Assembly: GCA_964564225.1 (NCBI GenBank) | Contig: CAZMAF010000001.1 | Coordinates: forward strand, 78,980 to 142,132 | Length of the DNA stretch: 63,153 nucleotides | DNA from: an uncultured Lachnospiraceae bacterium | GTDB lineage: Bacteria > Bacillota > Clostridia > Oscillospirales > CAG-272 | Direction of reading: 5' to 3' | Shown: positions 30,333 through 62,890 of the stretch, piece by piece | How the letters are laid out: the number at the start of each line of letters is the position of its first letter | Numbering within the stretch: position 1 is the first letter of the stretch | The notes under the pieces: generated by a model | What the model was told of the DNA's origin: nothing | Databases searched by the model: none | Seen by the model: only the letters and a program-made list of their open reading frames with translations | Program-made: the position numbers and the translations under genes

Positions 30333-30361
30333 ATTATATGAAATATTTTTCCATTTGTCAA
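30333..30361 (-). promoter_or_regulatory. Sigma-A promoter of lysC (TTGACA-17-TATAAT)
   Basis: On the minus strand, TTGACA lies at 30356-30361 and TATAAT at 30333-30338 with a 17-nt spacer. Confidence 0.6.
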
Positions 30362-30451: not shown

Positions 30452-30480
30452 TTGACAACGTATCTTAAATTTGCTATAAT
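30452..30480 (+). promoter_or_regulatory. Consensus sigma-A promoter of the tracrRNA
   Basis: TTGACA at 30452-30457, a 17-nt spacer, then TGcTATAAT with TATAAT at 30475-30480. Both hexamers are perfect and the TG extension is present. Confidence 0.8.
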
Positions 30481-30486
30481 AATCAC

Positions 30487-30576
30487 AGTCTTAAATCATA
30501 CCAAAGACTAATAGGTTGCTATGATAAGGTAGTAAACCGAAAAAGCTCTGACGACCCTCGCGGTCGTTATCTTTTT
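30487..30576 (+). ncRNA. tracrRNA: tracrRNA of the type II-C system
   Basis: The anti-repeat at 30490-30525 pairs with the 36-nt repeat through 30 Watson-Crick pairs, 3 G-U pairs and one 2x2 internal loop. It is followed by AAGG, the hairpin ACGACC-CTCGC-GGTCGT and TTTTT. GTTGCTATGATAAGG resembles the N. meningitidis tracrRNA GUUGCUACAAUAAGG as I recall it. The 5' end is predicted from the promoter. Confidence 0.8.
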
Positions 30577-30582
30577 ATACCA

Positions 30583-32191
30583 CTATTAGTTTTTGGTATG
30601 ATTTAACCGCTTGCCCCTTAATGAGGTGCGTGCAAACGTCGTAGCTCCCTATTAGTTTTTGGTATGATTTAACTTTTCGGCGCGTATCGTGCTCTCTTTG
30701 CATGTCGTAGCTCCCTATTAGTTTTTGGTATGATTTAACGGTGTTTTTTACGAGCATTTGCCGAAACCAGTCGTAGCTCCCTATTAGTTTTTGGTATGAT
30801 TTAACCATATTTTTTCGTAGATGTCGAATTCCCAAGTCGTAGCTCCCTATTAGTTTTTGGTATGATTTAACCGTCGTCGTTCCCGCAAACGCGTTTATGA
30901 TGTCGTAGCTCCCTATTAGTTTTTGGTATGATTTAACAAGCACGCTTGAACCGAAACGTATCACGATGTCGTAGCTCCCTATTAGTTTTTGGTATGATTT
31001 AACAAGCACGCTTGAACCGAAACGTATCACGATGTCGTAGCTCCCTATTAGTTTTTGGTATGATTTAACTAACTTCGGGATATTATGTTGTCACTCTATG
31101 TCGTAGCTCCCTATTAGTTTTTGGTATGATTTAACAGCTTTCTCACCGTCCCGTCATCCATGCGGGTCGTAGCTCCCTATTAGTTTTTGGTATGATTTAA
31201 CCAGGCGAAAAGGCGGTATTGATAAATGGATAGTCGTAGCTCCCTATTAGTTTTTGGTATGATTTAACGCATCAATCTGCTTTATGGCTCTGTTCGTAGT
31301 CGTAGCTCCCTATTAGTTTTTGGTATGATTTAACAGATAGCCCGAACGGTATGCACGCGATTCTGTCGTAGCTCCCTATTAGTTTTTGGTATGATTTAAC
31401 AGTACAAGCAGACAATGCAAGCGCGGCACAGTCGTAGCTCCCTATTAGTTTTTGGTATGATTTAACAAGAAAAGTTTAATGGACATATCATGAAAGGTCG
31501 TAGCTCCCTATTAGTTTTTGGTATGATTTAACACAACTACGAAAGAAACGACTAATAACAAAGTCGTAGCTCCCTATTAGTTTTTGGTATGATTTAACAT
31601 CCCGTTCTTTTTGTTGTCGGGTGTCCGAGTCGTAGCTCCCTATTAGTTTTTGGTATGATTTAACATCTGACTTGCCTATAAATTTCTTCGCGTGGTCGTA
31701 GCTCCCTATTAGTTTTTGGTATGATTTAACATAAAGGTGATAAACCCCTGTGGAGGTGGCGTCGTAGCTCCCTATTAGTTTTTGGTATGATTTAACAAAC
31801 GGCTCGCATTCAAGAGAAACAATCTTGTCGTAGCTCCCTATTAGTTTTTGGTATGATTTAACATGATGGTATGTCAACCGCCTTAAAGCGTAGTCGTAGC
31901 TCCCTATTAGTTTTTGGTATGATTTAACGCCACAGCCTCTGCATTGGTCTTTGTTGCCGTCGTAGCTCCCTATTAGTTTTTGGTATGATTTAACTTTTCA
32001 GCGACTTCCTTTTCCACGCCTAAAGTCGTAGCTCCCTATTAGTTTTTGGTATGATTTAACCTCCGCACACTCTGATAGCGAATACGTCTCGTCGTAGCTC
32101 CCTATTAGTTTTTGGTATGATTTAACACAGTAGCAGAGCTGTATGAGCGCCTGCGGTCGTAGCTCCCTATTAGTTTTTGGTATGATTTAAC
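30583..32191 (+). CRISPR. CRISPR array: 24 full 36-nt repeats plus one 5'-truncated repeat, and 24 spacers of 29-31 nt (23 unique)
   Basis: The repeat GTCGTAGCTCCCTATTAGTTTTTGGTATGATTTAAC starts at 30638, 30704, ... 32156, and all copies look identical by eye. A truncated copy (CTATTAGTTTTTGGTATGATTTAAC) lies at 30583-30607. The plus-strand orientation follows from similarity to the Neisseria type II-C repeat GTTGTAGCTCCC... and from tracrRNA pairing. Confidence 0.97.
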
Positions 32192-32200
32192 TGACAGGGC

Positions 32201-32237
32201 AAAAATCCCCGAAATCCATGTGATTTCGGGGATTTTT
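32201..32237. terminator. Bidirectional terminator between cas2 and the array
   Basis: AAAAATCCCCGAAATC-CATGT-GATTTCGGGGATTTTT. Confidence 0.8.
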
Positions 32238-32289
32238 CGTTTTAAAAAAACTGAAATTTCTGTAAAAACAAGTATAAAAAAGTTGTTTT

Positions 32290-32619
32290 TCAAAAAAGCG
32301 TAAGCTGAAGATCCTGCGGCTTTATCAATTCATCTTTTTGATACTGCCCGACCAATAAGCGAATCGCATCATATTGCTTTTCCGTAATCACCAAAAGACG
32401 CACCGATCCGTTTGGCGGCAAATTTCCTTTCAAACGAGCCTCATGCTTAGCAACGGCATCCATACCGTTACACAAACGCGCGTAAACGGAAAACTGCACC
32501 ATATAATATCCGTCTTTCAGCAAAAAATTACGGAATTTCGTAGCAGCGTGCCGCTCCGCTTTAGTTTTAACGGGAAGATCAAAAAACACCAACACTCTCA
32601 TAAACTTACTCGTATTCAT
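32290..32619 (-). CDS. cas2: CRISPR-associated endoribonuclease Cas2
   Basis: 109 aa. MRVLVFFDLPVKTKAERHAATKFRNFLLKDGYYMVQFSVYARLC is a typical Cas2 N-terminus. It overlaps the cas1 stop. Confidence 0.9.
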   Translation of the reverse strand: MNTSKFMRVLVFFDLPVKTKAERHAATKFRNFLLKDGYYMVQFSVYARLCNGMDAVAKHEARLKGNLPPNGSVRLLVITEKQYDAIRLLVGQYQKDELIKPQDLQLTLF

Positions 32620-33505
32620 GTCGTTTTAATTCAGCAAAAGTAGGTAACAAAAGCTTCTTTTCAGGATCATCATAAGCCGAAAGCAAACTATTTACAAGCC
32701 GTTCTGCCGCATAGGCCATCGTATGATGCTCCCCGCCCGACAGCATCTCATAATTCAAAATATTTTGCAATTCCCTCTTGGTCGAAATATCAAATTCATC
32801 AAAATTACAATTTTGAAAAACAAAAGCATCCACCAACGAACGAAACGGCTCAATCAGATCATCGGCAAGATTAAAAGGATTTAACTCACTACGGTGATGA
32901 ATGCCCAAACACGGCTCAAAGCCCCGCGAAGCGATCAACCGAGCCAAATAACCGCGCACGATCGCATAACCGTAATTCAACGCCGCGTTAATGGCAGACT
33001 CATCAGATCGCGTGAAATCCGCGCCAAACAAAAGCCGGAAATAAAGCGCCGCCGCTTTGGCTTCCACGTTTGTCTTATCTCCAGACTGTACCGATGAAAC
33101 AAGCCCCGAAAGCCTTTGTATAAACGATTCATCTACACCGCACACCGAAAGACACGCCGCCTGATTTTGAATTTTAGCAACAACAATACTCTTCCACATC
33201 TGTTTGAGCTGTGGCTGAGACGGCGATAACTGCAACAGTAACTGCTTTCTCTGTCGGGAATGTTGTCCAATCGGTTGAAGCAAAGCACAAGGCAAATGCT
33301 TATCGTCACAAATATACACACAAATACCGTGTATCGCAAACGCTGATAGCGCATAGGTGGAAATCTGCGACGAACGGCTTTCGAGAATCACCGTGCGAAT
33401 ATCCTCAAGCGGTACTCGTCCCTCGGCAGCGCCGGAAATAACCAACTGCTCATTTTTTACCGTGATCGAAACCGAAGACGAAATCACAATGTTGCGATAT
33501 CCCAT
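32606..33505 (-). CDS. cas1: CRISPR-associated endonuclease Cas1 (type II)
   Basis: 299 aa. Blocks ALNYGYAIVRG...GFEPCLGIHHRSELNPFNLADDLIEPFR carry the Cas1 metal-binding residues. Confidence 0.9.
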   Translation of the reverse strand: MGYRNIVISSSVSITVKNEQLVISGAAEGRVPLEDIRTVILESRSSQISTYALSAFAIHGICVYICDDKHLPCALLQPIGQHSRQRKQLLLQLSPSQPQLKQMWKSIVVAKIQNQAACLSVCGVDESFIQRLSGLVSSVQSGDKTNVEAKAAALYFRLLFGADFTRSDESAINAALNYGYAIVRGYLARLIASRGFEPCLGIHHRSELNPFNLADDLIEPFRSLVDAFVFQNCNFDEFDISTKRELQNILNYEMLSGGEHHTMAYAAERLVNSLLSAYDDPEKKLLLPTFAELKRHEYE

Positions 33506-33506
33506 T

Positions 33507-36500
33507 TTACGACCTCTTCTGCGTAAAAGGCTGTCTACGCTCTTTTCCTACCAATCGCACGTTACCAAGCACATCGACCTCGTATTTTTCAATTCTCAAT
33601 GTCGTTTTACCGATAGTGCGATGTGTATACGTTCCGTCGTGCGTTATTCCTCTGAGAACGGCAACCGAAATATCCAGTCCCTTATTATAGAGGAACACAC
33701 CGTCGCCCCCACTTAATGTCTTCGTCTTAGGCAGCGTACTGCCTGCTTTTTCTAGCTTTCCATCAAGTGAAAGTGAAAAATCTTTTTTAAAATACACCTT
33801 TATAAGATCATTGGGATATAATGAAAATTGAAAATCAGAATCTCTCATTTGTTTCCAGATTTTCTTATCATTCTTGTCTTTAGCCGCTGTCGGCGCCATA
33901 CTCGGCAATTCCGCCTTAACCGTATCATGAACGTAGATCGGCACAAAATAATAACCATCATCCTCAACGTAAAATACGTCAATACGGATCATATCGCCAT
34001 TCGCGGCAATACCCGTACCCCCATGCACGTCAACGAACGAAGAAATACGCTCTCGAATCTTGACCGAGGTCACAAGCGTACCCTCGCCGCCTTTCTTAGA
34101 GGGCTTATACACAGGCTTTGCAAAAGCCTGTGACGCATCCCCGTTATGCTCAATCAAGCGGTCTGCAAGAATAGCATACAATACGGGATCGGAATCGTTA
34201 TAATATCCCTCGATCTGTCCGCTTTTCCACTTCAATTTCGTCAAAGGAACCTTGGAAACAAGATATCCGTCATCCTTGAGCTTTCCACTGTAAACCGTTG
34301 CCTTATTAGCAGCTCCCTTGATCTTATGACGGCACATACGCGATACAAAAGGCGCCGTCACACTTTCTAAATCGACCTCTGCATAATTCGGAAAATTCTT
34401 ATCATTCAACTGCTTACGTACTGCCGCATCATCCTGACACAGACGAATCGTCAATTCATCAAGAAACCACGGCCACGGTCTTGGAAATTTAACAATAACG
34501 TCATTCGACTTCTCAATAACCTCACCCGTAATCGCATCCACAAGATACTCCTCCGCATATTGCGTTTCTTCATACCGAGCATGACGATTGATCTCGTTAA
34601 TCATACCTTGTGAAATACAACCAATAACAGTTGCATCAAGCGCATGATGCAAATCGCCGTCAGCACGCACCTTACGAACACCCCATCTTGCACGTACAAC
34701 CGCAGTAATCATACCGTTCACGGCATATACGTGACGCTTTTTACCGCTGCTGAACGGAGAAAATGCAAGATAGTCGTTAATATATCCATACAAAAACCGT
34801 GAAAGATACTGTGTATCTTGTAAATTACGCGCTTTCCATTCCGACTCATTCGAAATCTTTTCCTTCAAAAGCAAAGCTTTTTTATTTGCTTTTAACCGAC
34901 TTGTTTTAACCCAGACTATGAAATCATCACGCTTTTGACCGGTCAGATATTGAAGCGGTAAACGGTTTGACTTATTACGATTTTCCGCCGTTCTGACCAA
35001 AACCTTATTCACCATTCTATCGTCAAAACATTGGCTATACGGAACGATATGATCAACTTCAACCAATCGGTGATCCATAAGCTCCTCAAAGGATATATTT
35101 GTCAAAGAATACGCGCAAACCTTACCCTGTTCATTCCAAAGCTTATACTTAACAAGATCAAATCCGGTGGGCTGTTTTACACCAAGCCCACGAAGTTCAT
35201 CCATCATCCGCTCATTTTGTGCCGCATTTTCCTTCTGCAATTTTTCAATCTTATTGCGTTCCTCAAAGGTCTTGGAAAGCTCCCTTGCAAGCTCGATATT
35301 CAGATATACAGGACTTTCCTCACCCATAAAACGAATAATCGCATTCAAGACTTTGATCGTCTGCGACACCGCACGCTTAACAACAGGGTTCGTAATCGCT
35401 GTACTCGTAGCATCAAGCCCGGGAAGGTATTTAAACTTTTCCGTGTTTTCCGCCTTAAAAGCATACCCTGCCGCCTCGCAAGCCTTATCATAAGTAAGTC
35501 CTTTTTCAAGATGAGGAATAATTTTCCGAAGCGCCTTCAAGGATAAATGTCCGTTTTTCGCCTTATTATCGAGAGTCAGCACACGATCGATAATTTCCTG
35601 CGAAAAATCCGCTTTAAGAAGCTGCTTGGTAATTTCTTCATCCGAATAATTCTTCGAAAACACCATACCGATCACGTCAAGTTGCTCGTGAGAAACGAAT
35701 ACAAATAGATCATCCCCAAGCGCAGCCTTCACTTTGTGATAAAATTCAAGATCGTTAAGCTTTGACTTGTCCTCTGCCTTTTTAACGTCCTCACCCTTCA
35801 CATACGTAATACCTCTAAAAAGCGCATCGTCGCTCAACTGCAAAAGCTTTCTGATTTGTAAATAACTCAACGTTTTCTTTTTATGACATTCATCAACGAT
35901 CAAACGGCGCTCTTCATCCGCCAATGAACGCACGTCCCCGTTTTCGATAATACGAATATGATTAACATGCTGCCACAAATTGAAAATCTGAAATGAATAC
36001 GTCGCCTTCGCCGCGCGAGGCTCGTCCTTTTCAAAGGTACAATTCCCGCGCATTCTGTCTACCTGATTGCCAGCGTACGGACCGCAAGCGGGTCCGTCTG
36101 CAAACGAACGCTGTCTTAATAAAATCTCACAGTATAACGCCTCGTTTTCTTCAGTAGCAAACAAATGTCCGTATTCCCGCTGCTTACCGAAAATCAAATG
36201 CACCTCATCTTCAATCGAAGCACGGTCGACCGTACAGTCAAACTGCCCCGCCCGATTTCGCCTCTGCTCCAAATGATAAAACATCTCGCCAACCGTGCGA
36301 TAACCTTTTTTGGCACAAAGCTCACGGTTTTTGGCAACCGCGCTCAACATTTGCGAGCCTTCAGTATCTTTTTTATCCTCTGCCTTACGATTGGATTTAA
36401 AACCTCTTCTTTGCGCTAAATGAATCAATACACGCGCAAATTCTTCATCTGTCAGACGCTCATCAAGCGCCTTCACACGAAGCCCGTACACGTCGGAAAG

Positions 36501-36791
36501 TTCCTTTCCGTCATATAAAGTATCAAGCGCATCTTGAGTTAAAAGCCCGGAAGAACAAATCAAATTACGAATACGCTCTTTTCTGTGTCTTCTGCGGCGA
36601 ACCGTTCTTCTGGCACAACGGAAAACTCTGCGCTCTTCTGCAAGTGGATCTCCCGTTTTCGGCAACTCTGCCTTTTCAAAAATACGGGAACCAAGCTTGA
36701 TAATACGACAAGGATTATCATTTCCGTCAAGCTCCAATACCGAATATCCAACCGATGCAATTCCAACGTCCAGACCGATAGCATATTTCAT
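33507..36791 (-). CDS. cas9: Cas9 endonuclease, compact type II-C-size ortholog (1094 aa)
   Basis: RuvC-I KYAIGLDVGIASVGYSVL (D8). Arg-rich bridge helix RRVFRCARRTVRRRRHRKERIRNL. RuvC-II NIELARE. HNH VEVDHIVPYSQCFDDRMVNKVLVRTAENRNKSNRLP. RuvC-III DLHHALDATVIG. No csn2 or cas4 is present in the locus. Confidence 0.95.
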   Translation of the reverse strand: MKYAIGLDVGIASVGYSVLELDGNDNPCRIIKLGSRIFEKAELPKTGDPLAEERRVFRCARRTVRRRRHRKERIRNLICSSGLLTQDALDTLYDGKELSDVYGLRVKALDERLTDEEFARVLIHLAQRRGFKSNRKAEDKKDTEGSQMLSAVAKNRELCAKKGYRTVGEMFYHLEQRRNRAGQFDCTVDRASIEDEVHLIFGKQREYGHLFATEENEALYCEILLRQRSFADGPACGPYAGNQVDRMRGNCTFEKDEPRAAKATYSFQIFNLWQHVNHIRIIENGDVRSLADEERRLIVDECHKKKTLSYLQIRKLLQLSDDALFRGITYVKGEDVKKAEDKSKLNDLEFYHKVKAALGDDLFVFVSHEQLDVIGMVFSKNYSDEEITKQLLKADFSQEIIDRVLTLDNKAKNGHLSLKALRKIIPHLEKGLTYDKACEAAGYAFKAENTEKFKYLPGLDATSTAITNPVVKRAVSQTIKVLNAIIRFMGEESPVYLNIELARELSKTFEERNKIEKLQKENAAQNERMMDELRGLGVKQPTGFDLVKYKLWNEQGKVCAYSLTNISFEELMDHRLVEVDHIVPYSQCFDDRMVNKVLVRTAENRNKSNRLPLQYLTGQKRDDFIVWVKTSRLKANKKALLLKEKISNESEWKARNLQDTQYLSRFLYGYINDYLAFSPFSSGKKRHVYAVNGMITAVVRARWGVRKVRADGDLHHALDATVIGCISQGMINEINRHARYEETQYAEEYLVDAITGEVIEKSNDVIVKFPRPWPWFLDELTIRLCQDDAAVRKQLNDKNFPNYAEVDLESVTAPFVSRMCRHKIKGAANKATVYSGKLKDDGYLVSKVPLTKLKWKSGQIEGYYNDSDPVLYAILADRLIEHNGDASQAFAKPVYKPSKKGGEGTLVTSVKIRERISSFVDVHGGTGIAANGDMIRIDVFYVEDDGYYFVPIYVHDTVKAELPSMAPTAAKDKNDKKIWKQMRDSDFQFSLYPNDLIKVYFKKDFSLSLDGKLEKAGSTLPKTKTLSGGDGVFLYNKGLDISVAVLRGITHDGTYTHRTIGKTTLRIEKYEVDVLGNVRLVGKERRQPFTQKRS

Positions 36792-36827
36792 ATTTTAACA
36801 ACCTCCAAATCAATTGGTATCTATTGT

Positions 36828-36856
36828 ATTTTAACAAATATTAACGCATAAATCAA
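36828..36856 (-). promoter_or_regulatory. Candidate promoter of the cas9-cas1-cas2 operon
   Basis: On the minus strand, TTGATT lies at 36851-36856, followed by a 17-nt spacer and TGtTAAAAT with TAAAAT at 36828-36833. GGAGG RBS before the cas9 ATG. Confidence 0.55.
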
Positions 36857-36916: not shown

Positions 36917-36945
36917 TTGCATTTTCAATCCGGGTATGCTATAAT
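36917..36945 (+). promoter_or_regulatory. Candidate promoter of mgtE
   Basis: TTGCAT, a 17-nt spacer, then TGcTATAAT. Confidence 0.55.
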
Positions 36946-36976
36946 AATTTCATTCTAAAAAATCGGAGGTGACGAT

Positions 36977-46552: not shown

Positions 46553-46599
46553 ATCATTTGTCCTTTCATGAAAAACATCATTTGTCCTTTCATGAAAAA
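46553..46599. promoter_or_regulatory. Two tandem 23-nt direct repeats, each containing the palindrome TTTCATGAAA (operator-like)
   Basis: ATCATTTGTCCTTTCATGAAAAA occurs at 46553-46575 and again at 46577-46599, immediately upstream of the -35 box. Confidence 0.7.
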
Positions 46600-54856: not shown

Positions 54857-55036
54857 ATGCAGAATCTTCTTAAAGGAATTTCTTTGATACTGTTTGGTAT
54901 CGCCATAATTCTTGTTGCATTGGTTAACGAAACTGCACATTACTTTTCTGTTGATTTAACCGTTGTAATAACTCTCATTGGAATAATAGTGTCTGCTGTC
55001 GGGTTGACATTCACATTTAGTTCTAAGAGCAAATAA
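54857..55036 (+). CDS. 59-aa two-TM hydrophobic peptide (type I toxin- or holin-like), antisense to the intron
   Basis: MQNLLKGISLILFGIAIILVALVNETAHYFSVDLTVVITLIGIIVSAVGLTFTFSSKSK. GAGG RBS 7 nt upstream, its own promoter and its own terminator. Confidence 0.55.
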   Translation: MQNLLKGISLILFGIAIILVALVNETAHYFSVDLTVVITLIGIIVSAVGLTFTFSSKSK

Positions 55037-55045
55037 TATTCACAC

Positions 55046-55079
55046 AATACTTCTCTCATCAAGGGAAGTATTTCTTTTT
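55046..55079 (+). terminator. Terminator of the mini-gene
   Basis: AATACTTC-(11 nt)-GAAGTATT followed by TCTTTTT. Confidence 0.6.
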
Positions 55080-55227
55080 AGGCAACTTTTTCCTCCAGCT
55101 TTTCCCCCGGTCCACACCGTGCGTGCGACTTTCACCGCACACGGCGTTCCATCGTTTCACTTAATATCACTTTAACATCACAATTTTACAATTATTTCAG
55201 CCTTCATTCGCCTTGGAATACGCTTCC

Positions 55228-57195
55228 TTAGCGGAGCGCAGGTAATCCCGCGAGTTCCCTTAGCTGATTAAGCTTATTAAGTTGCTTGTCATTCAACTTG
55301 AGTAAACCCAAATAGAAATCAATTGTGCTTTTCTTTGTAGAGTGTAGCAGTCGATGCACATCTTCCAGTATAAGCACAAGATTGTTATAACCATCTTTGC
55401 CACCCATTGCTCTTGGAGTTTTGTGATGACAATGTATTTCCTCTTGACATAAAAAGTCTTTGCCAGTGATGGCACATCTACCTCTTTGTGCCGCAAAGAG
55501 AGAAACACGGTTATCGTTATACTCAATTGAACGGTCACTTACTGGGTATTTGTATAGCTCACCCAGTAACCAAGCGTTCCGAAACATTAGGTTGTCGTGT
55601 TTCCATTTTCGTCCTTCAGGCGTGTATAGATTAACAGCTTTCTTCTTACCTACGGTTGTTCTGTGACTTACATATGCTATCGGTAGAATGTAATGTCCTT
55701 GACATTCCATTATCCGTCTGCATTTTCCGTAATTTTTGTAATCTCCTTGTCTTGGGGTTAAGGAGCATTTCTTCAGAGGTTTAAGCCGATTATACAATGC
55801 CTTGTAAATCGAGTTATGGATTTCTTGACAATCCGTTGTAATATCCGTTGCCATTCGGAAATAGTTATGTATTCCTCTAACCTCGGAGTTATACAACTGA
55901 ATGTTTCTCACGGCTTGTTTTGAGTCACCGCTTCGTTGAATGACTTTGATTTGCTTTTTTAATGCAACTTTAGTGCGCTCAATTGCTTTAGGGCACATAT
56001 GGGACACAATGACATCTTTTTTGCCTTTTCTTTTTGTTCTAATTTCAATTCCCAAGAATTCTCCAGATTTTTTCCGAAGATTTACAATCCGAGTCTTTTC
56101 CATTGAAACATCAAGGTCAAGGCGCTTTTTGAGCCATTCCGCGACTCCATATAGTGTTTTCTCTGCTTCACCCTTTGTAGCACACATTATTCGCACATCG
56201 TCTGCATATCGGATGATGTGCATTTCTTTTAGATTGGTTTTTCGCATTTCCCGAAAAGAGCTTCCTTTGCTGAAAGTTCCATTCGGTGCTACTCCGCCTT
56301 TCCATTTGTACGCAAGTGGATTTTCTCCCCATTGACTTTCCATATGCCAATCCAATTCATTGAGAACGATATTGGCAAGTAACGGTGAGATAATACCGCC
56401 TTGCGGTGTGCCTTTTGTTGGTGTCAAGATAGTACCATCGGGCATTTCGATTTTTGCCTTTAGTATCTTCTTAATTATGCAGATAAGTTGCTTATCCCTA
56501 ATTCCCATCGCCCAAATTTGTCTAATCAGTTTGGTGTGATTGACATTGTCGAAGAATCCTTTTATATCCACTTCAATCATATAATACAGATTCGACCGAT
56601 TGATGTATCGGTAAACCTCATTTATTGCATTTTCCGCAGACCGTAAAGGACGGAATCCAAAACTCCCATCGAAAAACTTTGCTTCACAAATAGGTTCGAG
56701 TATTTGTAGAATACATTGTTGTATCAATCTATCCCATATACACGGAATACCTAAAGGTCGTGTTCTACCGTTGGGTTTTGGTATATCCTTTCTCCGAACA
56801 TTTCTCGGTTGATAGTTACTTAGGATATTTCGCACTCGTTTGCATACTACTTCTGGTTCGAGTTTTTCGATATGTTTAATGTTCAGTCCATCCGTACCAG
56901 GCGTTTTACTTCCCGAATTGCGTTTTATGGAACGGTATGCCATCAAGATATTTGCGTTCGAAGTGATATACTTCATTAGCGTATCAAAGATAACTCCGTT
57001 TTTACTGTCACTATACAGTTTATCTAACAACTCTTGCTGGTCGTAGTATTCAGCATATCGAAGTTTGTTTATTTTCTTCTGCTTAATCTTTTTGGCTATC
57101 TGTACTTCTACAGGTTGCCTTGCTGAAATTTGTTCATCCACTGGTTCATCACCCCCACTGTATGAGGTACCTCTTTTGGGCTTACTCACATCCAA
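55228..57195 (-). CDS. Group II intron reverse transcriptase / maturase / HNH endonuclease
   Basis: 655 aa. RT blocks TPGTDG, RPLGIP, GTPQGGIISPLLANI and IRYADDVRIM. The C-terminal HNH region is CAITGK...HCHHKTPRAMGGKDGYNNLVLILEDVHRLLH. The track start is TTG, so the exact start is uncertain. Confidence 0.9.
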   Translation of the reverse strand: MDVSKPKRGTSYSGGDEPVDEQISARQPVEVQIAKKIKQKKINKLRYAEYYDQQELLDKLYSDSKNGVIFDTLMKYITSNANILMAYRSIKRNSGSKTPGTDGLNIKHIEKLEPEVVCKRVRNILSNYQPRNVRRKDIPKPNGRTRPLGIPCIWDRLIQQCILQILEPICEAKFFDGSFGFRPLRSAENAINEVYRYINRSNLYYMIEVDIKGFFDNVNHTKLIRQIWAMGIRDKQLICIIKKILKAKIEMPDGTILTPTKGTPQGGIISPLLANIVLNELDWHMESQWGENPLAYKWKGGVAPNGTFSKGSSFREMRKTNLKEMHIIRYADDVRIMCATKGEAEKTLYGVAEWLKKRLDLDVSMEKTRIVNLRKKSGEFLGIEIRTKRKGKKDVIVSHMCPKAIERTKVALKKQIKVIQRSGDSKQAVRNIQLYNSEVRGIHNYFRMATDITTDCQEIHNSIYKALYNRLKPLKKCSLTPRQGDYKNYGKCRRIMECQGHYILPIAYVSHRTTVGKKKAVNLYTPEGRKWKHDNLMFRNAWLLGELYKYPVSDRSIEYNDNRVSLFAAQRGRCAITGKDFLCQEEIHCHHKTPRAMGGKDGYNNLVLILEDVHRLLHSTKKSTIDFYLGLLKLNDKQLNKLNQLRELAGLPALR

Positions 57196-57920
57196 TGCTA
57201 AGTGATGTTTAGTGTATATTAGTGTAACGACTTGTGGCCATTCCTCCTACTTCCATTACAGAAGTTATCATTGGTTCGACCACTACTTTTCAGCATTAGT
57301 TCGATAACTTATTATTCTTCGTTTACCTATTCTCGTTTCCGAGAACCTAATACCTTTCCTCGTTCCCTTAATTTTATCTGTACATTTTCTCTTTTAGGTT
57401 TCTGCTATAGGCCTGTCGGATTCATATGCGCCTGCCGCATATAAGGTATTTCATAGACGCAGATTTTTACTTTACCTCACCGACGTCCCTCTATGGGGAA
57501 ACTCCGTGTTTCCACGTATCGCCAGTTTAGACCCGTACTTTCGCAGATTCGTCAGTACATTCCGTACATTCTAACCGTGAGAGATTTATAGACCCCCGAC
57601 ATATCATTTCCCTTGTCTTATACTTTAGATGTTTGGAACGGGCGGGCTCTGGCCACTTTTGTACCAATTCTTACTAATCTATTTCTTTGATTTAGGTACT
57701 CTTTCTGCCGACTTTACCGAGCTTCTGACTATTTAACTTTCGTTATATATAGCCAGTCGGAGTCTTAGGGATAGTCCTTCAAGAGGGTTGCCCAATCCTT
57801 TCGGGATTGGCTCTATCATTTGACTATTCGAATTAAGAGTTCTCCTTAAATAAGCTTGTAGTATATAACTACTTCGACTTCTTTAAGTGCCTTAGCTTTT
57901 CACTAAGGAACGAGTCGCAC

Positions 57921-61280: not shown

Positions 61281-61403
61281 ACAAAACAAAAGCACCCACG
61301 TCATCCGCGGGTGCTTTCTCATCTCCACGGAATTGGCACCTTACGTTTGCAGGTTGCCGTGACTTCATCGGGCTGTGTCCCTCCGCCACTCTTGATAAGA
61401 GCT
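61281..61403 (-). promoter_or_regulatory. SAM-I (S-box) riboswitch with terminator, in the metK leader
   Basis: The minus strand reads CTCTTATCAAGAGTGGCGGAGGGACACAGCCCGATGAAGTCACGGCAACC...GGTGCCAATTCCGTGGAGATGAGA, followed by AAAGCACCC-GCGGATGAC-GTGGGTGCTTTTGTTTT. Confidence 0.9.
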
Positions 61404-62714: not shown

Positions 62715-62890
62715 AAATCCCCACTACCGTGGGGAAACACTTTTGCCATAAAAGCAAATCTTTTCTCATCCGGACTTTACCGTCGGTACAGGATTTTCAC
62801 CTATTCAGCATTGCCCAAAGCAACACTCACGGACTTGGCGTATACGCCTTACCGTCGGTGTGGAATTTCACCAACCCCCAAAGATCTTTC
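62715..62890 (-). promoter_or_regulatory. FMN riboswitch (RFN element) with terminator
   Basis: The minus strand reads GGGGTTGGTGAAATTCCACACCGACGGT...AGTCCGTGA...GGTGAAAATCCTGTACCGACGGTAAAGTCCGGATGAGAAAAG, followed by the hairpin CCCCACGGTAGTGGGG and a T run. Confidence 0.85.

What the first reader, a model, noticed from the sequence alone, without database searches (positions are those of the whole stretch)
30452..36856. Complete compact type II-C CRISPR-Cas9 locus at the window centre, between lysC and mgtE
All parts of an autonomous Cas9 system can be read directly. The cas9 (1094 aa)-cas1-cas2 genes form one tightly packed minus-strand operon with 1-nt and overlapping junctions. There is a 24-spacer array and a tracrRNA. 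No csn2 (II-A) or cas4 (II-B) is present, and the Cas9 size matches the small II-C orthologs (NmeCas9-like). All catalytic signatures look intact: D8 in GLDVGIASVG, IELARE, the DHIVP...N..N HNH motif and HHALDA. The repeats appear identical throughout and 23 spacers are unique, so the system looks recently active. No transposase or integrase flanks it. The ortholog, its PAM and its guide architecture cannot be matched to a characterised enzyme from the sequence alone. It is therefore a candidate new compact genome-editing nuclease and the main biological system in this window.
Basis: partly seen in the sequence, partly recalled or inferred. Interest (0 to 1): 0.85.

Follow-up and report, generated by a model that had tools for sequence, protein, structure and literature searches.

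The report
Ordinary, intact type II-C CRISPR-Cas9 locus
This is a real, complete and apparently working CRISPR-Cas9 phage-defence locus of the compact II-C kind in an uncultured gut Clostridia bacterium, and its guide RNA design and target motif match already characterised enzymes, so it is a new member of a well-known family.

Summary
cas9 (1094 aa), cas1 and cas2 lie on the minus strand. There are 24 identical 36-nt repeats plus one truncated repeat, and 24 spacers, 23 of them unique. A tracrRNA gene lies beyond the array. The locus sits between lysC and mgtE.

I add the following:
- The tracrRNA and crRNAs are on the plus strand, convergent with the cas operon, as in Neisseria and Campylobacter II-C systems.
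- The guide scaffold is Nme1/GeoCas9-like but shorter, about 89 nt.
- Three spacers nearest cas2 match phage or prophage DNA perfectly, each followed by NNNNCCAA. That is the optimal PAM reported for ThermoCas9 at 30 °C, and the two ThermoCas9 residues that read the PAM C:G pair are conserved here (D1040, R1058).
- Catalytic residues are intact, and dN/dS against an 82 % ortholog is 0.07.
- Two related genomes have lysC next to mgtE with no cas genes, so the 6.5-kb module is an insertion.

The nearest characterised enzymes (ThermoCas9, GeoCas9, AtCas9) are about 41 % identical. More than 3,000 strong relatives (E ≤ 1e-50) exist in public data, many in Clostridia metagenome-assembled genomes. 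It is a new member of a known kind, and its interest is modest.

The parts
30452..30480 (+). tracrRNA promoter (TTGACA-17-TATAAT with upstream TG)
   Evidence: 12 of 12 consensus match. The same arrangement occurs in L015, L118 and L119.
30487..30576 (+). tracrRNA, about 89 nt. Anti-repeat 30491-30525, AAGG plus a 3-bp hairpin at 30528-30538, AAAGCUCUG linker, terminator hairpin 30549-30569 and U-tract.
   Evidence: Cofold with the repeat gives 33 intermolecular pairs and -62.2 kcal/mol. The tracrRNA alone folds with z = -4.3. Terminator. The hairpin is kept with compensatory changes in L118 and L119.
30583..30607 (+). Truncated terminal repeat (the 3' 25 nt of the repeat) at the cas-distal, presumably oldest, end. 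It carries a promoter-like site, 30574-30602.
   Evidence: The same truncated repeat follows the tracrRNA terminator in L015, L118 and L119.
30608..32191 (+). CRISPR array in crRNA sense: 24 spacers (29-31 nt, sp6 = sp7) and 24 identical 36-nt repeats.
   Evidence: Exact-match count.
31929..31958 (+). Spacer 21. A 30/30 protospacer lies between the tail-sheath and tail-terminator genes of an IMG/VR phage; 3' flank ATAGCCAA.
31995..32024 (+). Spacer 22. A 30/30 protospacer lies in a phage scaffold gene next to the major capsid gene, in 7 Clostridia genome (MAG) contigs, with an eighth at 29/30; 3' flank TCTTCCAA.
32127..32155 (+). Spacer 24, nearest cas2. A 29/29 protospacer occurs in three IMG/VR contigs; 3' flank TAATCCAA.
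32192..32289 (.). Putative leader (acquisition end), containing a two-way terminator hairpin at 32196-32243.
   Evidence: Hairpin of -24.9 kcal/mol, z = -4.2. The sequence is conserved in L015. The leader role is inferred by analogy with Nme II-C and from the position of the matching spacers.
32290..32619 (-). cas2. The ORF is 109 aa; the likely true start is M7 at 32601, giving 103 aa.
   Evidence: TIGR01573 84 bits, with the match starting at residue 7. The L015 ortholog is 103 aa.
32606..33505 (-). cas1 (type II, NMENI class), 299 aa
   Evidence: TIGR03639 277 bits; PF01867.
33507..36791 (-). cas9, 1094 aa. Catalytic residues D8, E500, H581, N604, H716, D719; arginine-rich bridge helix around residue 65; PAM-reading D1040 and R1058.
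36828..36856 (-). Promoter-like site for the cas9-cas1-cas2 operon (TTGATT-17-TAAAAT with TG)
   Evidence: It matches 9 of 12 positions and is a consensus match only.

Best explanation
This is a chromosomal, functional type II-C CRISPR-Cas9 adaptive immune system of an uncultured gut Clostridia bacterium.

The cas9-cas1-cas2 operon is transcribed leftward on the minus strand. On the plus strand a strong promoter drives an ~89-nt tracrRNA. The array that follows it is also transcribed rightward, towards cas2. Transcription could start at an extended -10 element (TGGTATGAT) inside each repeat, as in Neisseria II-C systems, at the promoter-like site in the truncated first repeat, or at both.

The 5' part of each repeat pairs with the tracrRNA anti-repeat. 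Cas9 loaded with this duplex cuts DNA that matches the spacer and is followed by 5'-NNNNCCAA-3', or a looser N4C-type motif. HNH would cut one strand and RuvC the other. Cas1 and Cas2 add new spacers at the cas2-proximal end.

Shown here: gene identities, intact motifs, purifying selection, RNA complementarity and signals, phage protospacers with a shared 3' motif, and an insertion into a lysC-mgtE intergenic site.

Inferred: actual transcription, RNA processing, cleavage, the acquisition polarity, and which PAM positions are required.
For: Identity:
- Cas9, Cas1 and Cas2 are far above the curated cut-offs.
- No fourth cas gene is present; lysC and mgtE abut the module.
- The best solved relatives are all II-C: GeoCas9, ThermoCas9 and AtCas9 at about 730 bits, Nme1Cas9 at 615.

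Integrity:
- All six catalytic residues are present.
- Of 269 columns at least 95 % conserved among 117 homologs, the window protein differs at 12. None is catalytic. Of the 11 that are substitutions, 9 recur in both closest orthologs, one in one of them, and the last is variable within the trio.
- dN/dS against the 82 % ortholog is 0.073 for cas9, 0.067 for cas1 and 0.048 for cas2.

Guide RNAs:
- The tracrRNA has a perfect promoter and a terminator.
- The repeat and anti-repeat form 33 pairs, with the same 2x2 internal loop as in the GeoCas9 and Nme1Cas9 sgRNAs (sgRNA sequences from PMC12514136 and PMC6594998).
- The tracrRNA tail hairpin is conserved with compensatory changes in sister loci.

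Targets and PAM:
- sp21, sp22 and sp24 match phage structural regions perfectly.
- Their 3' flanks are ATAGCCAA, TCTTCCAA and TAATCCAA. The 5' flanks share nothing.
- The chance of an identical 4-mer at one offset in three 12-nt flanks is about 1e-4.
- NNNNCCAA is the ThermoCas9 optimum at 30 °C, and ThermoCas9 Asp1017 and Arg1035 read the C5:G pair (PMC13216068). They align with D1040 and R1058 here.

Polarity:
- Three of the four spacers nearest cas2 have matches, and none of the next four do.
- The degenerate repeat is at the far end.
- In Nme II-C the leader is at the transcription-distal end (PMC12477760; PMC3737331).

Stability:
- The same locus in the same site, with different spacers, occurs in a related strain (L015).
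Against: - There are no expression or cleavage data, and the organism is uncultured.
- The PAM rests on only three independent protospacers. All read CCAA, so required and tolerated positions cannot be told apart.
- Of the nine spacers tried in any public collection (sp1-sp16 were not tried), six had no exact 20-mer match: five against the viral contigs (sp22 matched genome contigs instead), and sp23 also against the metagenome and genome contigs.
- The in-repeat -10 (TATGAT) lies 5 nt further from the repeat end than in Neisseria and in the 40-44 % relatives, whose repeats end in TATAAT. It lacks a -35, and the scan flagged it only in the truncated repeat. Internal promoters are therefore uncertain.
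- The cas operon promoter is a weak consensus match.
Confidence: 0.9

Rival explanations
1. crRNA biogenesis differs from the Neisseria model. The array is made as one long pre-crRNA from the promoter-like site in the truncated first repeat (30574-30602), or by read-through from the tracrRNA promoter. It is then cut by RNase III in the repeat:anti-repeat duplex, and the -10-like element inside each repeat is not used.
For: - The only array-side promoter the scan reports is in the truncated repeat: TTTATA-17-TATGAT with TG, 9 of 12.
- Full repeats have no -35.
- The -10-like box is displaced 5 nt from the repeat end compared with relatives whose repeats end in TGGTATAAT.
- The 33-bp duplex is a good RNase III substrate.
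Against: - Extended -10 promoters need no -35.
- Repeat-embedded promoters are documented for the II-C systems of N. meningitidis and C. jejuni (PMC5965381).
- The two routes are not exclusive, and in Neisseria both operate.
Confidence: 0.4
2. The locus is a decaying or silenced relic that no longer provides immunity.
For: - No functional data exist.
- One spacer is duplicated (sp6 = sp7).
- Two loci sampled from the sister clade (56-57 % identical Cas9) lack cas1 and cas2, so module loss does happen in this group.
Against: - Catalytic and PAM residues are intact.
- dN/dS is about 0.07 for all three cas genes.
- All 24 full repeats are identical.
- The tracrRNA promoter is perfect.
- Three spacers match circulating phages exactly, each with one consistent PAM.
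- The related strain carries different spacers.
Confidence: 0.05
3. The nuclease has a PAM or guide requirement unlike any characterised Cas9, making it a distinctly new editing tool.
For: - It is only about 41 % identical to the nearest characterised enzymes.
- The tracrRNA tail is unusually short.
- Three protospacers cannot define PAM breadth.
Against: - The protospacer flanks give N4CCAA, already described for ThermoCas9.
- The PAM-contact residues are conserved.
- The repeat:anti-repeat geometry and the AAGG / GCUCUG tail motifs are the same as in Nme1Cas9, and the duplex and AAGG as in GeoCas9.
Confidence: 0.08
4. It belongs to subtype II-A or II-B, or the array is read on the minus strand together with the cas genes.
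For: None beyond the general rule that arrays are often co-directional with cas genes.
Against: - There is no csn2 or cas4 ORF in or next to the operon.
- Cas9 is far closer to II-C than to II-A enzymes.
- The tracrRNA promoter and terminator exist only on the plus strand.
- A conserved motif is found only on the side that is 3' in plus-strand sense.
Confidence: 0.01

Closest known systems
ThermoCas9 (Geobacillus thermodenitrificans T12, PDB 9AR4/9AR6) and GeoCas9 (G. stearothermophilus, PDB 8UZA)
   Same: - Type II-C and about the same size (1082-1087 aa against 1094).
- Best solved-structure matches, about 733 bits over the full length.
- The predicted PAM N4CCAA equals the ThermoCas9 optimum at 30 °C.
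- The C5:G-reading Asp and Arg are conserved.
- The crRNA repeat start GTC(G/A)TAG(C/T)TCCC and the tracrRNA GGTT(G/A)CTATGATAAGG are nearly identical, with a compensatory pair at repeat position 8.
   Different: - Only about 41 % identical.
- The host is a mesophilic gut Clostridia bacterium, whereas the Geobacillus hosts are thermophilic Bacilli.
- The tracrRNA tail is about 50 nt with two small hairpins. The GeoCas9 sgRNA tail is about 95 nt, and the ThermoCas9/GeoCas9 tail includes a pseudoknot.
Nme1Cas9 system of Neisseria meningitidis (PDB 6JDQ/6JDV)
   Same: - Minimal cas9-cas1-cas2 operon and 36-nt repeats.
- The array is transcribed opposite to the cas genes, with the degenerate repeat at the transcription-proximal end.
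- An extended -10-like element lies in the repeat.
- The tracrRNA tail has the same layout: AAGG, stem-loop 1, (A/C)GCUCUG linker, stem-loop 2.
   Different: - 615 bits, and the C-terminal PAM domain aligns only in part.
- The Nme1 PAM is N4GATT (from my own knowledge).
- Stem-loop 1 here is cut down to 3 bp.
- The -10 box lies 5 nt further from the repeat end.
- In the window the tracrRNA gene lies beyond the array; I did not check where it lies in Neisseria.
AtCas9 (Alicyclobacillus tengchongensis, PDB 9WAD/21DZ)
   Same: - Type II-C, 730 bits, and the best match of the C-terminal PAM-interacting region.
- Asp1089, which reads C5, aligns with D1040 here.
   Different: - AtCas9 is 1154 aa.
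- Its second PAM contact is Lys1107 where this protein has Arg1058.
- It has a permissive N4CNNN / N4RNNA PAM.
Uncharacterised Cas9 proteins of Clostridia / Oscillospirales metagenome-assembled genomes (for example P0002, P0003, P0006, P0017)
   Same: - P0002 (82 %) and P0003 (80 %) are orthologs. For P0002 the same lysC-mgtE site and a near-identical tracrRNA and repeat were seen in L015; the P0003 contigs (L019, L020) end before the array.
- The 56-57 % sister clade shares the order tracrRNA, truncated repeat, array, and the repeat end TGGTA(T/C)GA.
   Different: - The two sister-clade loci sampled have cas9 and an array but no adjacent cas1-cas2.
- Their tracrRNA stem-loop 1 is 14 nt longer.
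- In the 40-44 % relatives the anti-repeat lies upstream of cas9 on the cas9 strand.

Membership tests
Type II CRISPR-Cas (Cas9 systems) | Single large effector with a split RuvC domain, an inserted HNH domain, and intact catalytic residues | tested here: met
   TIGR01865 at 750 bits; PF13395 HNH_4 and PF18541 RuvC_III. D8, E500, H581, N604, H716 and D719 are present.
Type II CRISPR-Cas (Cas9 systems) | tracrRNA gene with an anti-repeat complementary to the CRISPR repeat | tested here: met
   33 of 36 repeat positions pair, at -62 kcal/mol. The gene has its own promoter and terminator. Rfam has no matching family.
Subtype II-C | cas operon limited to cas9, cas1 and cas2, with no csn2 (II-A) and no cas4 (II-B) | tested here: met
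   Only three cas ORFs lie between the array and mgtE, with 1-nt and 4-nt junctions. The neighbours are lysC and mgtE. ORFs elsewhere in the window were not all scanned.
Subtype II-C | Cas9 groups with II-C orthologs by sequence | tested here: met
   Scores against solved structures: Geo, Thermo and At 730 bits and Nme1 615 (all II-C), against SaCas9 and St1Cas9 about 220 and SpCas9 46. This is a ranking of scores; no tree was built.
Subtype II-C, Neisseria-type biogenesis | Array transcribed opposite to the cas genes from promoters inside the repeats | tested here: inconclusive
   The opposite orientation is supported by the tracrRNA strand and by the side on which the PAM lies. The in-repeat TGGTATGAT is only a motif match, and it is displaced 5 nt. 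RNA data are needed.
GeoCas9/ThermoCas9-like PAM class (N4C...) | A 3' PAM with C at position 5, read by a conserved Asp/Arg pair in the PAM-interacting domain | tested here: met
   Three independent protospacers are followed by NNNNCCAA. D1040 and R1058 align with ThermoCas9 D1017 and R1035. The sample of three is small.
GeoCas9/ThermoCas9 ortholog group (close orthologs) | High sequence identity (GeoCas9 and ThermoCas9 share about 88 %) and the long pseudoknotted tracrRNA tail | tested here: not met
   About 41 % identity. The tracrRNA tail is about 50 nt with two small hairpins. It works like them but is not a member of that ortholog group.
Functional CRISPR immunity | RNA-guided cleavage of PAM-flanked targets, and acquisition of new spacers | not testable with these tools
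   The evidence is indirect only: phage-matching spacers, different spacers in a sister strain, and purifying selection.

The most novel reading that the evidence does not exclude
The lineage carries a naturally shortened guide scaffold. The tracrRNA is about 89 nt, and stem-loop 1 is reduced to a 3-bp hairpin by a 14-nt deletion relative to the sister clade. It is paired with a mesophilic 1094-aa Cas9 that reads a ThermoCas9-like N4CCAA PAM. If the enzyme is efficient at 37 °C with an sgRNA of about 100 nt, it could be a practically useful compact editor. The shifted in-repeat -10 element could also mean a different crRNA 5'-end rule, with guides of about 28 nt.
Probability: 0.15. Interest if true: 0.4.

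Novelty: new member of a known kind. Interest (0 to 1): 0.25.

Why it matters
Biologically, the locus records which phages attack an uncultured Clostridia lineage whose closest genome representatives here are deer-gut (roe deer caecum) and other uncultured Clostridia MAGs. The targets found are a sheathed-tail phage, a prophage with an HK97-like capsid module that is widespread in Clostridia genomes, and a third phage. It also gives a clean example of a whole tracrRNA-array-cas module dropped into a housekeeping intergenic region without any mobility gene.

Technologically, it is one more compact II-C Cas9 with a predicted N4CCAA PAM and a short natural scaffold. That is worth a line in an ortholog catalogue but is not a new principle. 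Thousands of such proteins are known and several close functional analogues are already characterised.

Tried and rejected
- The exact 36-nt repeat in genome contigs and a 21-nt repeat core in metagenome contigs both gave 0 hits. I could not collect more arrays of this species to enlarge the protospacer set.
- The whole array against GenBank phages gave only chance-level hits (E ≥ 0.5), and against PLSDB plasmids nothing.
- 20-mers of sp17, sp18, sp19, sp20 and sp23 had no exact match in viral contigs, and sp23 also none in metagenome or genome contigs. sp22 had none in viral contigs but matched genome contigs.
- A partial 20/29 match of sp24 in L023, and 20-mer matches of sp22 in Chitinophagaceae and Flavobacterium, are not protospacers. 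They have 6-7 mismatches and no CCAA.
- No spacer matches elsewhere in the window; the longest exact match is 15 nt.
- Rfam has no family that recognises this tracrRNA or repeat.
- Alignment of the empty-site intergenic regions (L038, L040) with the module borders was too divergent to place exact insertion boundaries.
- A 24-nt direct repeat bracketing the module (30472-30495 and 36937-36960) looked like a possible insertion scar. Both copies are TGCTATAAT extended -10 promoters, and the tracrRNA-side copy is not conserved in L015. I rejected it as chance or promoter convergence.

Full report
**Observation**

- The ORF list gives a 1094-aa ORF at 33507-36791(-), a 299-aa ORF at 32606-33505(-) and a 109-aa ORF at 32290-32619(-).
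- These score far above the curated NCBIfam cut-offs for Cas9 (TIGR01865, 750 bits), type II Cas1 (TIGR03639, 277 bits) and Cas2 (TIGR01573, 84 bits). Pfam adds HNH_4, RuvC_III and Cas9_a.
- An exact-match search finds 24 identical copies of the 36-nt repeat GTCGTAGCTCCCTATTAGTTTTTGGTATGATTTAAC from 30638 to 32191. A truncated copy, the last 25 nt of the repeat, lies at 30583-30607.
- This defines 24 spacers of 29-31 nt. Spacers 6 and 7 are identical, so 23 are unique.
- The flanking genes are aspartate kinase (lysC, 532 bits) and mgtE (445 bits).
- One detail needs correction. The overlap of cas1 and cas2 comes from taking the longest ORF. Cas2 homology begins at Met7 (MRVLVFFDLP), and the ortholog in a related strain starts there, which leaves a 4-nt gap.

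**Anatomy and polarity**

The tracrRNA gene is on the plus strand.
- A perfect TTGACA-17-TATAAT promoter with an upstream TG lies at 30452-30480.
- An anti-repeat lies at 30491-30525.
- A G+C-rich hairpin at 30549-30569 is followed by a U-tract ending near 30576.
- Cofolding the repeat with this RNA gives 33 intermolecular pairs (-62 kcal/mol), interrupted by a 2x2 internal loop at repeat positions 9-10.

It follows that the crRNA sense of the array is also the plus strand, so the array is read towards cas2, convergent with the cas operon. This is the arrangement shown experimentally for N. meningitidis and C. jejuni II-C loci. In those loci the degenerate repeat also lies at the transcription-proximal end (PMC3737331; PMC12477760).

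Between the last repeat and cas2 there is a strong hairpin at 32196-32243 (-24.9 kcal/mol, z = -4.2). It can terminate transcription from both directions. A weaker promoter-like site for the cas operon lies at 36856-36828(-).

**crRNA biogenesis**

The repeat contains TGGTATGAT, an extended -10 element. II-C repeats in Neisseria and Campylobacter carry such internal promoters (PMC5965381).
- Here the box lies 5 nt before the repeat end. In the 40-44 % relatives the repeat ends in TGGTATAAT.
- The scan flags a promoter only in the truncated first repeat.
- I therefore leave two routes open: an internal promoter in every repeat, which would give roughly 28-nt guide portions, or one pre-crRNA processed by RNase III. 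I rate them at roughly equal odds.

**Guide architecture**

The scaffold can be matched to characterised enzymes, using the GeoCas9 sgRNA (PMC12514136) and the Nme1Cas9 sgRNA (PMC6594998).
- All three start the repeat with GT(C/T)(G/A)TAG(C/T)TCCC.
- All three end the anti-repeat with GTT(G/A)CTA(T/C)(G/A)AT followed by AAGG.
- All three have the same internal loop.
- Repeat position 8 and its partner change together: T-A in Geo, C-G here.

The tail has the Nme layout: AAGG, stem-loop 1, an (A/C)GCUCUG linker, stem-loop 2, then the U-tract. Both hairpins are small.

Sister-clade loci L118 and L119 have the same order of promoter, tracrRNA, terminator, truncated repeat and array. Their alignment shows stem-loop 2 kept through wobble changes and one compensatory change. 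It also shows a 14-nt deletion that shortens stem-loop 1 in the window lineage.

In more distant relatives (40-44 % identity) the anti-repeat lies upstream of cas9 on the cas9 strand. The position of the tracrRNA gene therefore varies within the wider group, as noted long ago.

**The protein**

- The closest solved structures are GeoCas9, ThermoCas9 and AtCas9 (about 730 bits over the full length), then Nme1Cas9 (615 bits). The II-A enzymes are far behind.
- Identity to ThermoCas9, counted from the HMMER alignment, is about 41 %.
- D8, E500, H581, N604, H716 and D719 are in place.
- Among 269 columns that are at least 95 % conserved in 117 homologs, the protein deviates at 12, none of them catalytic. 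Nine of the 11 substitutions recur in both closest orthologs, so these are lineage traits and not decay.
- dN/dS against the 82 % ortholog is 0.07 for cas9, 0.07 for cas1 and 0.05 for cas2.

**Targets and PAM**

I spent the collection scans on 20-mers of the spacers nearest cas2.
- Spacer 24 matches three IMG/VR contigs 29/29.
- Spacer 21 matches three other IMG/VR contigs 30/30.
- Spacer 22 matches seven Clostridia genome (MAG) contigs 30/30, and an eighth at 29/30.
- The targets are phage DNA. The sp21 site lies between the tail-sheath and tail-terminator genes. The sp22 site lies in a scaffold gene beside the major capsid gene. The sp24 site lies in an unknown ORF next to a phage NTP-pyrophosphohydrolase gene.
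- In crRNA sense the 3' flanks are ATAGCCAA, TCTTCCAA and TAATCCAA. The 5' flanks share nothing.
- An identical 4-mer at one offset in three independent flanks has a chance of about 1e-4.

NNNNCCAA is the reported optimal PAM of ThermoCas9 at 30 °C. There, Asp1017 and Arg1035 read the C5:G pair (PMC13216068). Both residues align with D1040 and R1058 here, and AtCas9 Asp1089 aligns with the same Asp.

I put about 0.75 on "N4C with a preference for CCAA". Three sites cannot show which positions are required.

Three of the four cas2-proximal spacers matched and none of the next four did. This fits acquisition at the cas2 end.

**Origin and host**

- The closest proteins are two metagenomic orthologs at 82 % and 80 %. 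After them comes a large set at 58 % or below, from Clostridia, Ruminococcaceae and Acutalibacteraceae MAGs. In all, 3,366 proteins have E ≤ 1e-50.
- The 82 % ortholog sits in the same lysC-mgtE site with a near-identical tracrRNA and repeat but different spacers.
- lysC is 90 % identical to that of a roe-deer caecum Clostridia MAG and 75 % identical to that of another uncultured Clostridia MAG.
- In that 75 % relative and in a 63 % relative, lysC and mgtE are direct neighbours with no cas genes.
- The 6.5-kb module is therefore an insertion into a housekeeping intergenic region. No integrase or transposase lies beside it.

**Verdict**

The finding is real and correctly interpreted as a complete, probably active type II-C CRISPR-Cas9 system. 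It is not unusual. Its guide design and PAM fall within the Nme/Geo/ThermoCas9 range, the family is very large, and new II-C orthologs are mined routinely. It is a new member of a known kind. Its only mildly distinctive traits are a short natural tracrRNA and a displaced in-repeat -10 box.

Noticed in passing
window 54998-57844 (-): A group II intron: Rfam RF00029 at 54998-55149 and RF02004 at 57585-57844, with a 655-aa ORF at 55228-57195(-) between them that is presumably the intron-encoded protein.
   Followed up: no
window 62754-62889 (-) and 61316-61401 (-): An FMN riboswitch (106 bits) and a SAM riboswitch (67 bits), each upstream of a minus-strand ORF.
   Followed up: no
window 46553-46599: An exact tandem duplication of a 24-nt unit (ATCATTTGTCCTTTCATGAAAAAC) between the SpoVK-like AAA ATPase gene and the lactaldehyde reductase gene.
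   Followed up: no
window 30333-30361 (-): A perfect 12/12 sigma-70 promoter upstream of lysC. No lysine riboswitch or other Rfam leader was detected between it and lysC.
   Followed up: partly
window 30472-30495 and 36937-36960: A 24-nt direct repeat (83 % identity) brackets the whole CRISPR-Cas module. Both copies are TGCTATAAT extended -10 promoters (for tracrRNA and mgtE), and the tracrRNA-side copy is not conserved in L015, so it is probably not an insertion scar.
   Followed up: yes
L038 7336-10317; L040 7358-10317: Related Clostridia MAGs (lysC 75 % and 63 % identical) have mgtE and lysC as divergent direct neighbours about 300 bp apart, with no cas genes. This is an empty site for the CRISPR-Cas module.
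   Followed up: yes
L118 5001-9133; L119 5001-9572: Two loci sampled from the sister clade (Cas9 56-57 % identical) have cas9, an array and a tracrRNA but no adjacent cas1-cas2. These look like interference-only loci that may depend on adaptation genes elsewhere.
   Followed up: partly
L028, L030, L031, L033-L037: The phage targeted by spacer 22 (scaffold plus major capsid module) occurs in MAGs of several Clostridia species. It appears on two contigs in each of two MAGs, which suggests a widespread, possibly multi-copy prophage.
   Followed up: partly
L004 5329-5636 and 10790-11229: A relative with a 41 % identical Cas9 carries two CRISPR arrays, one on each side of the cas operon, with slightly different repeats.
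   Followed up: no
L007, L008, L009, L013: Candidatus Saccharibacteria MAGs encode Cas9 proteins 33-34 % identical to this one over nearly the full length.
   Followed up: no
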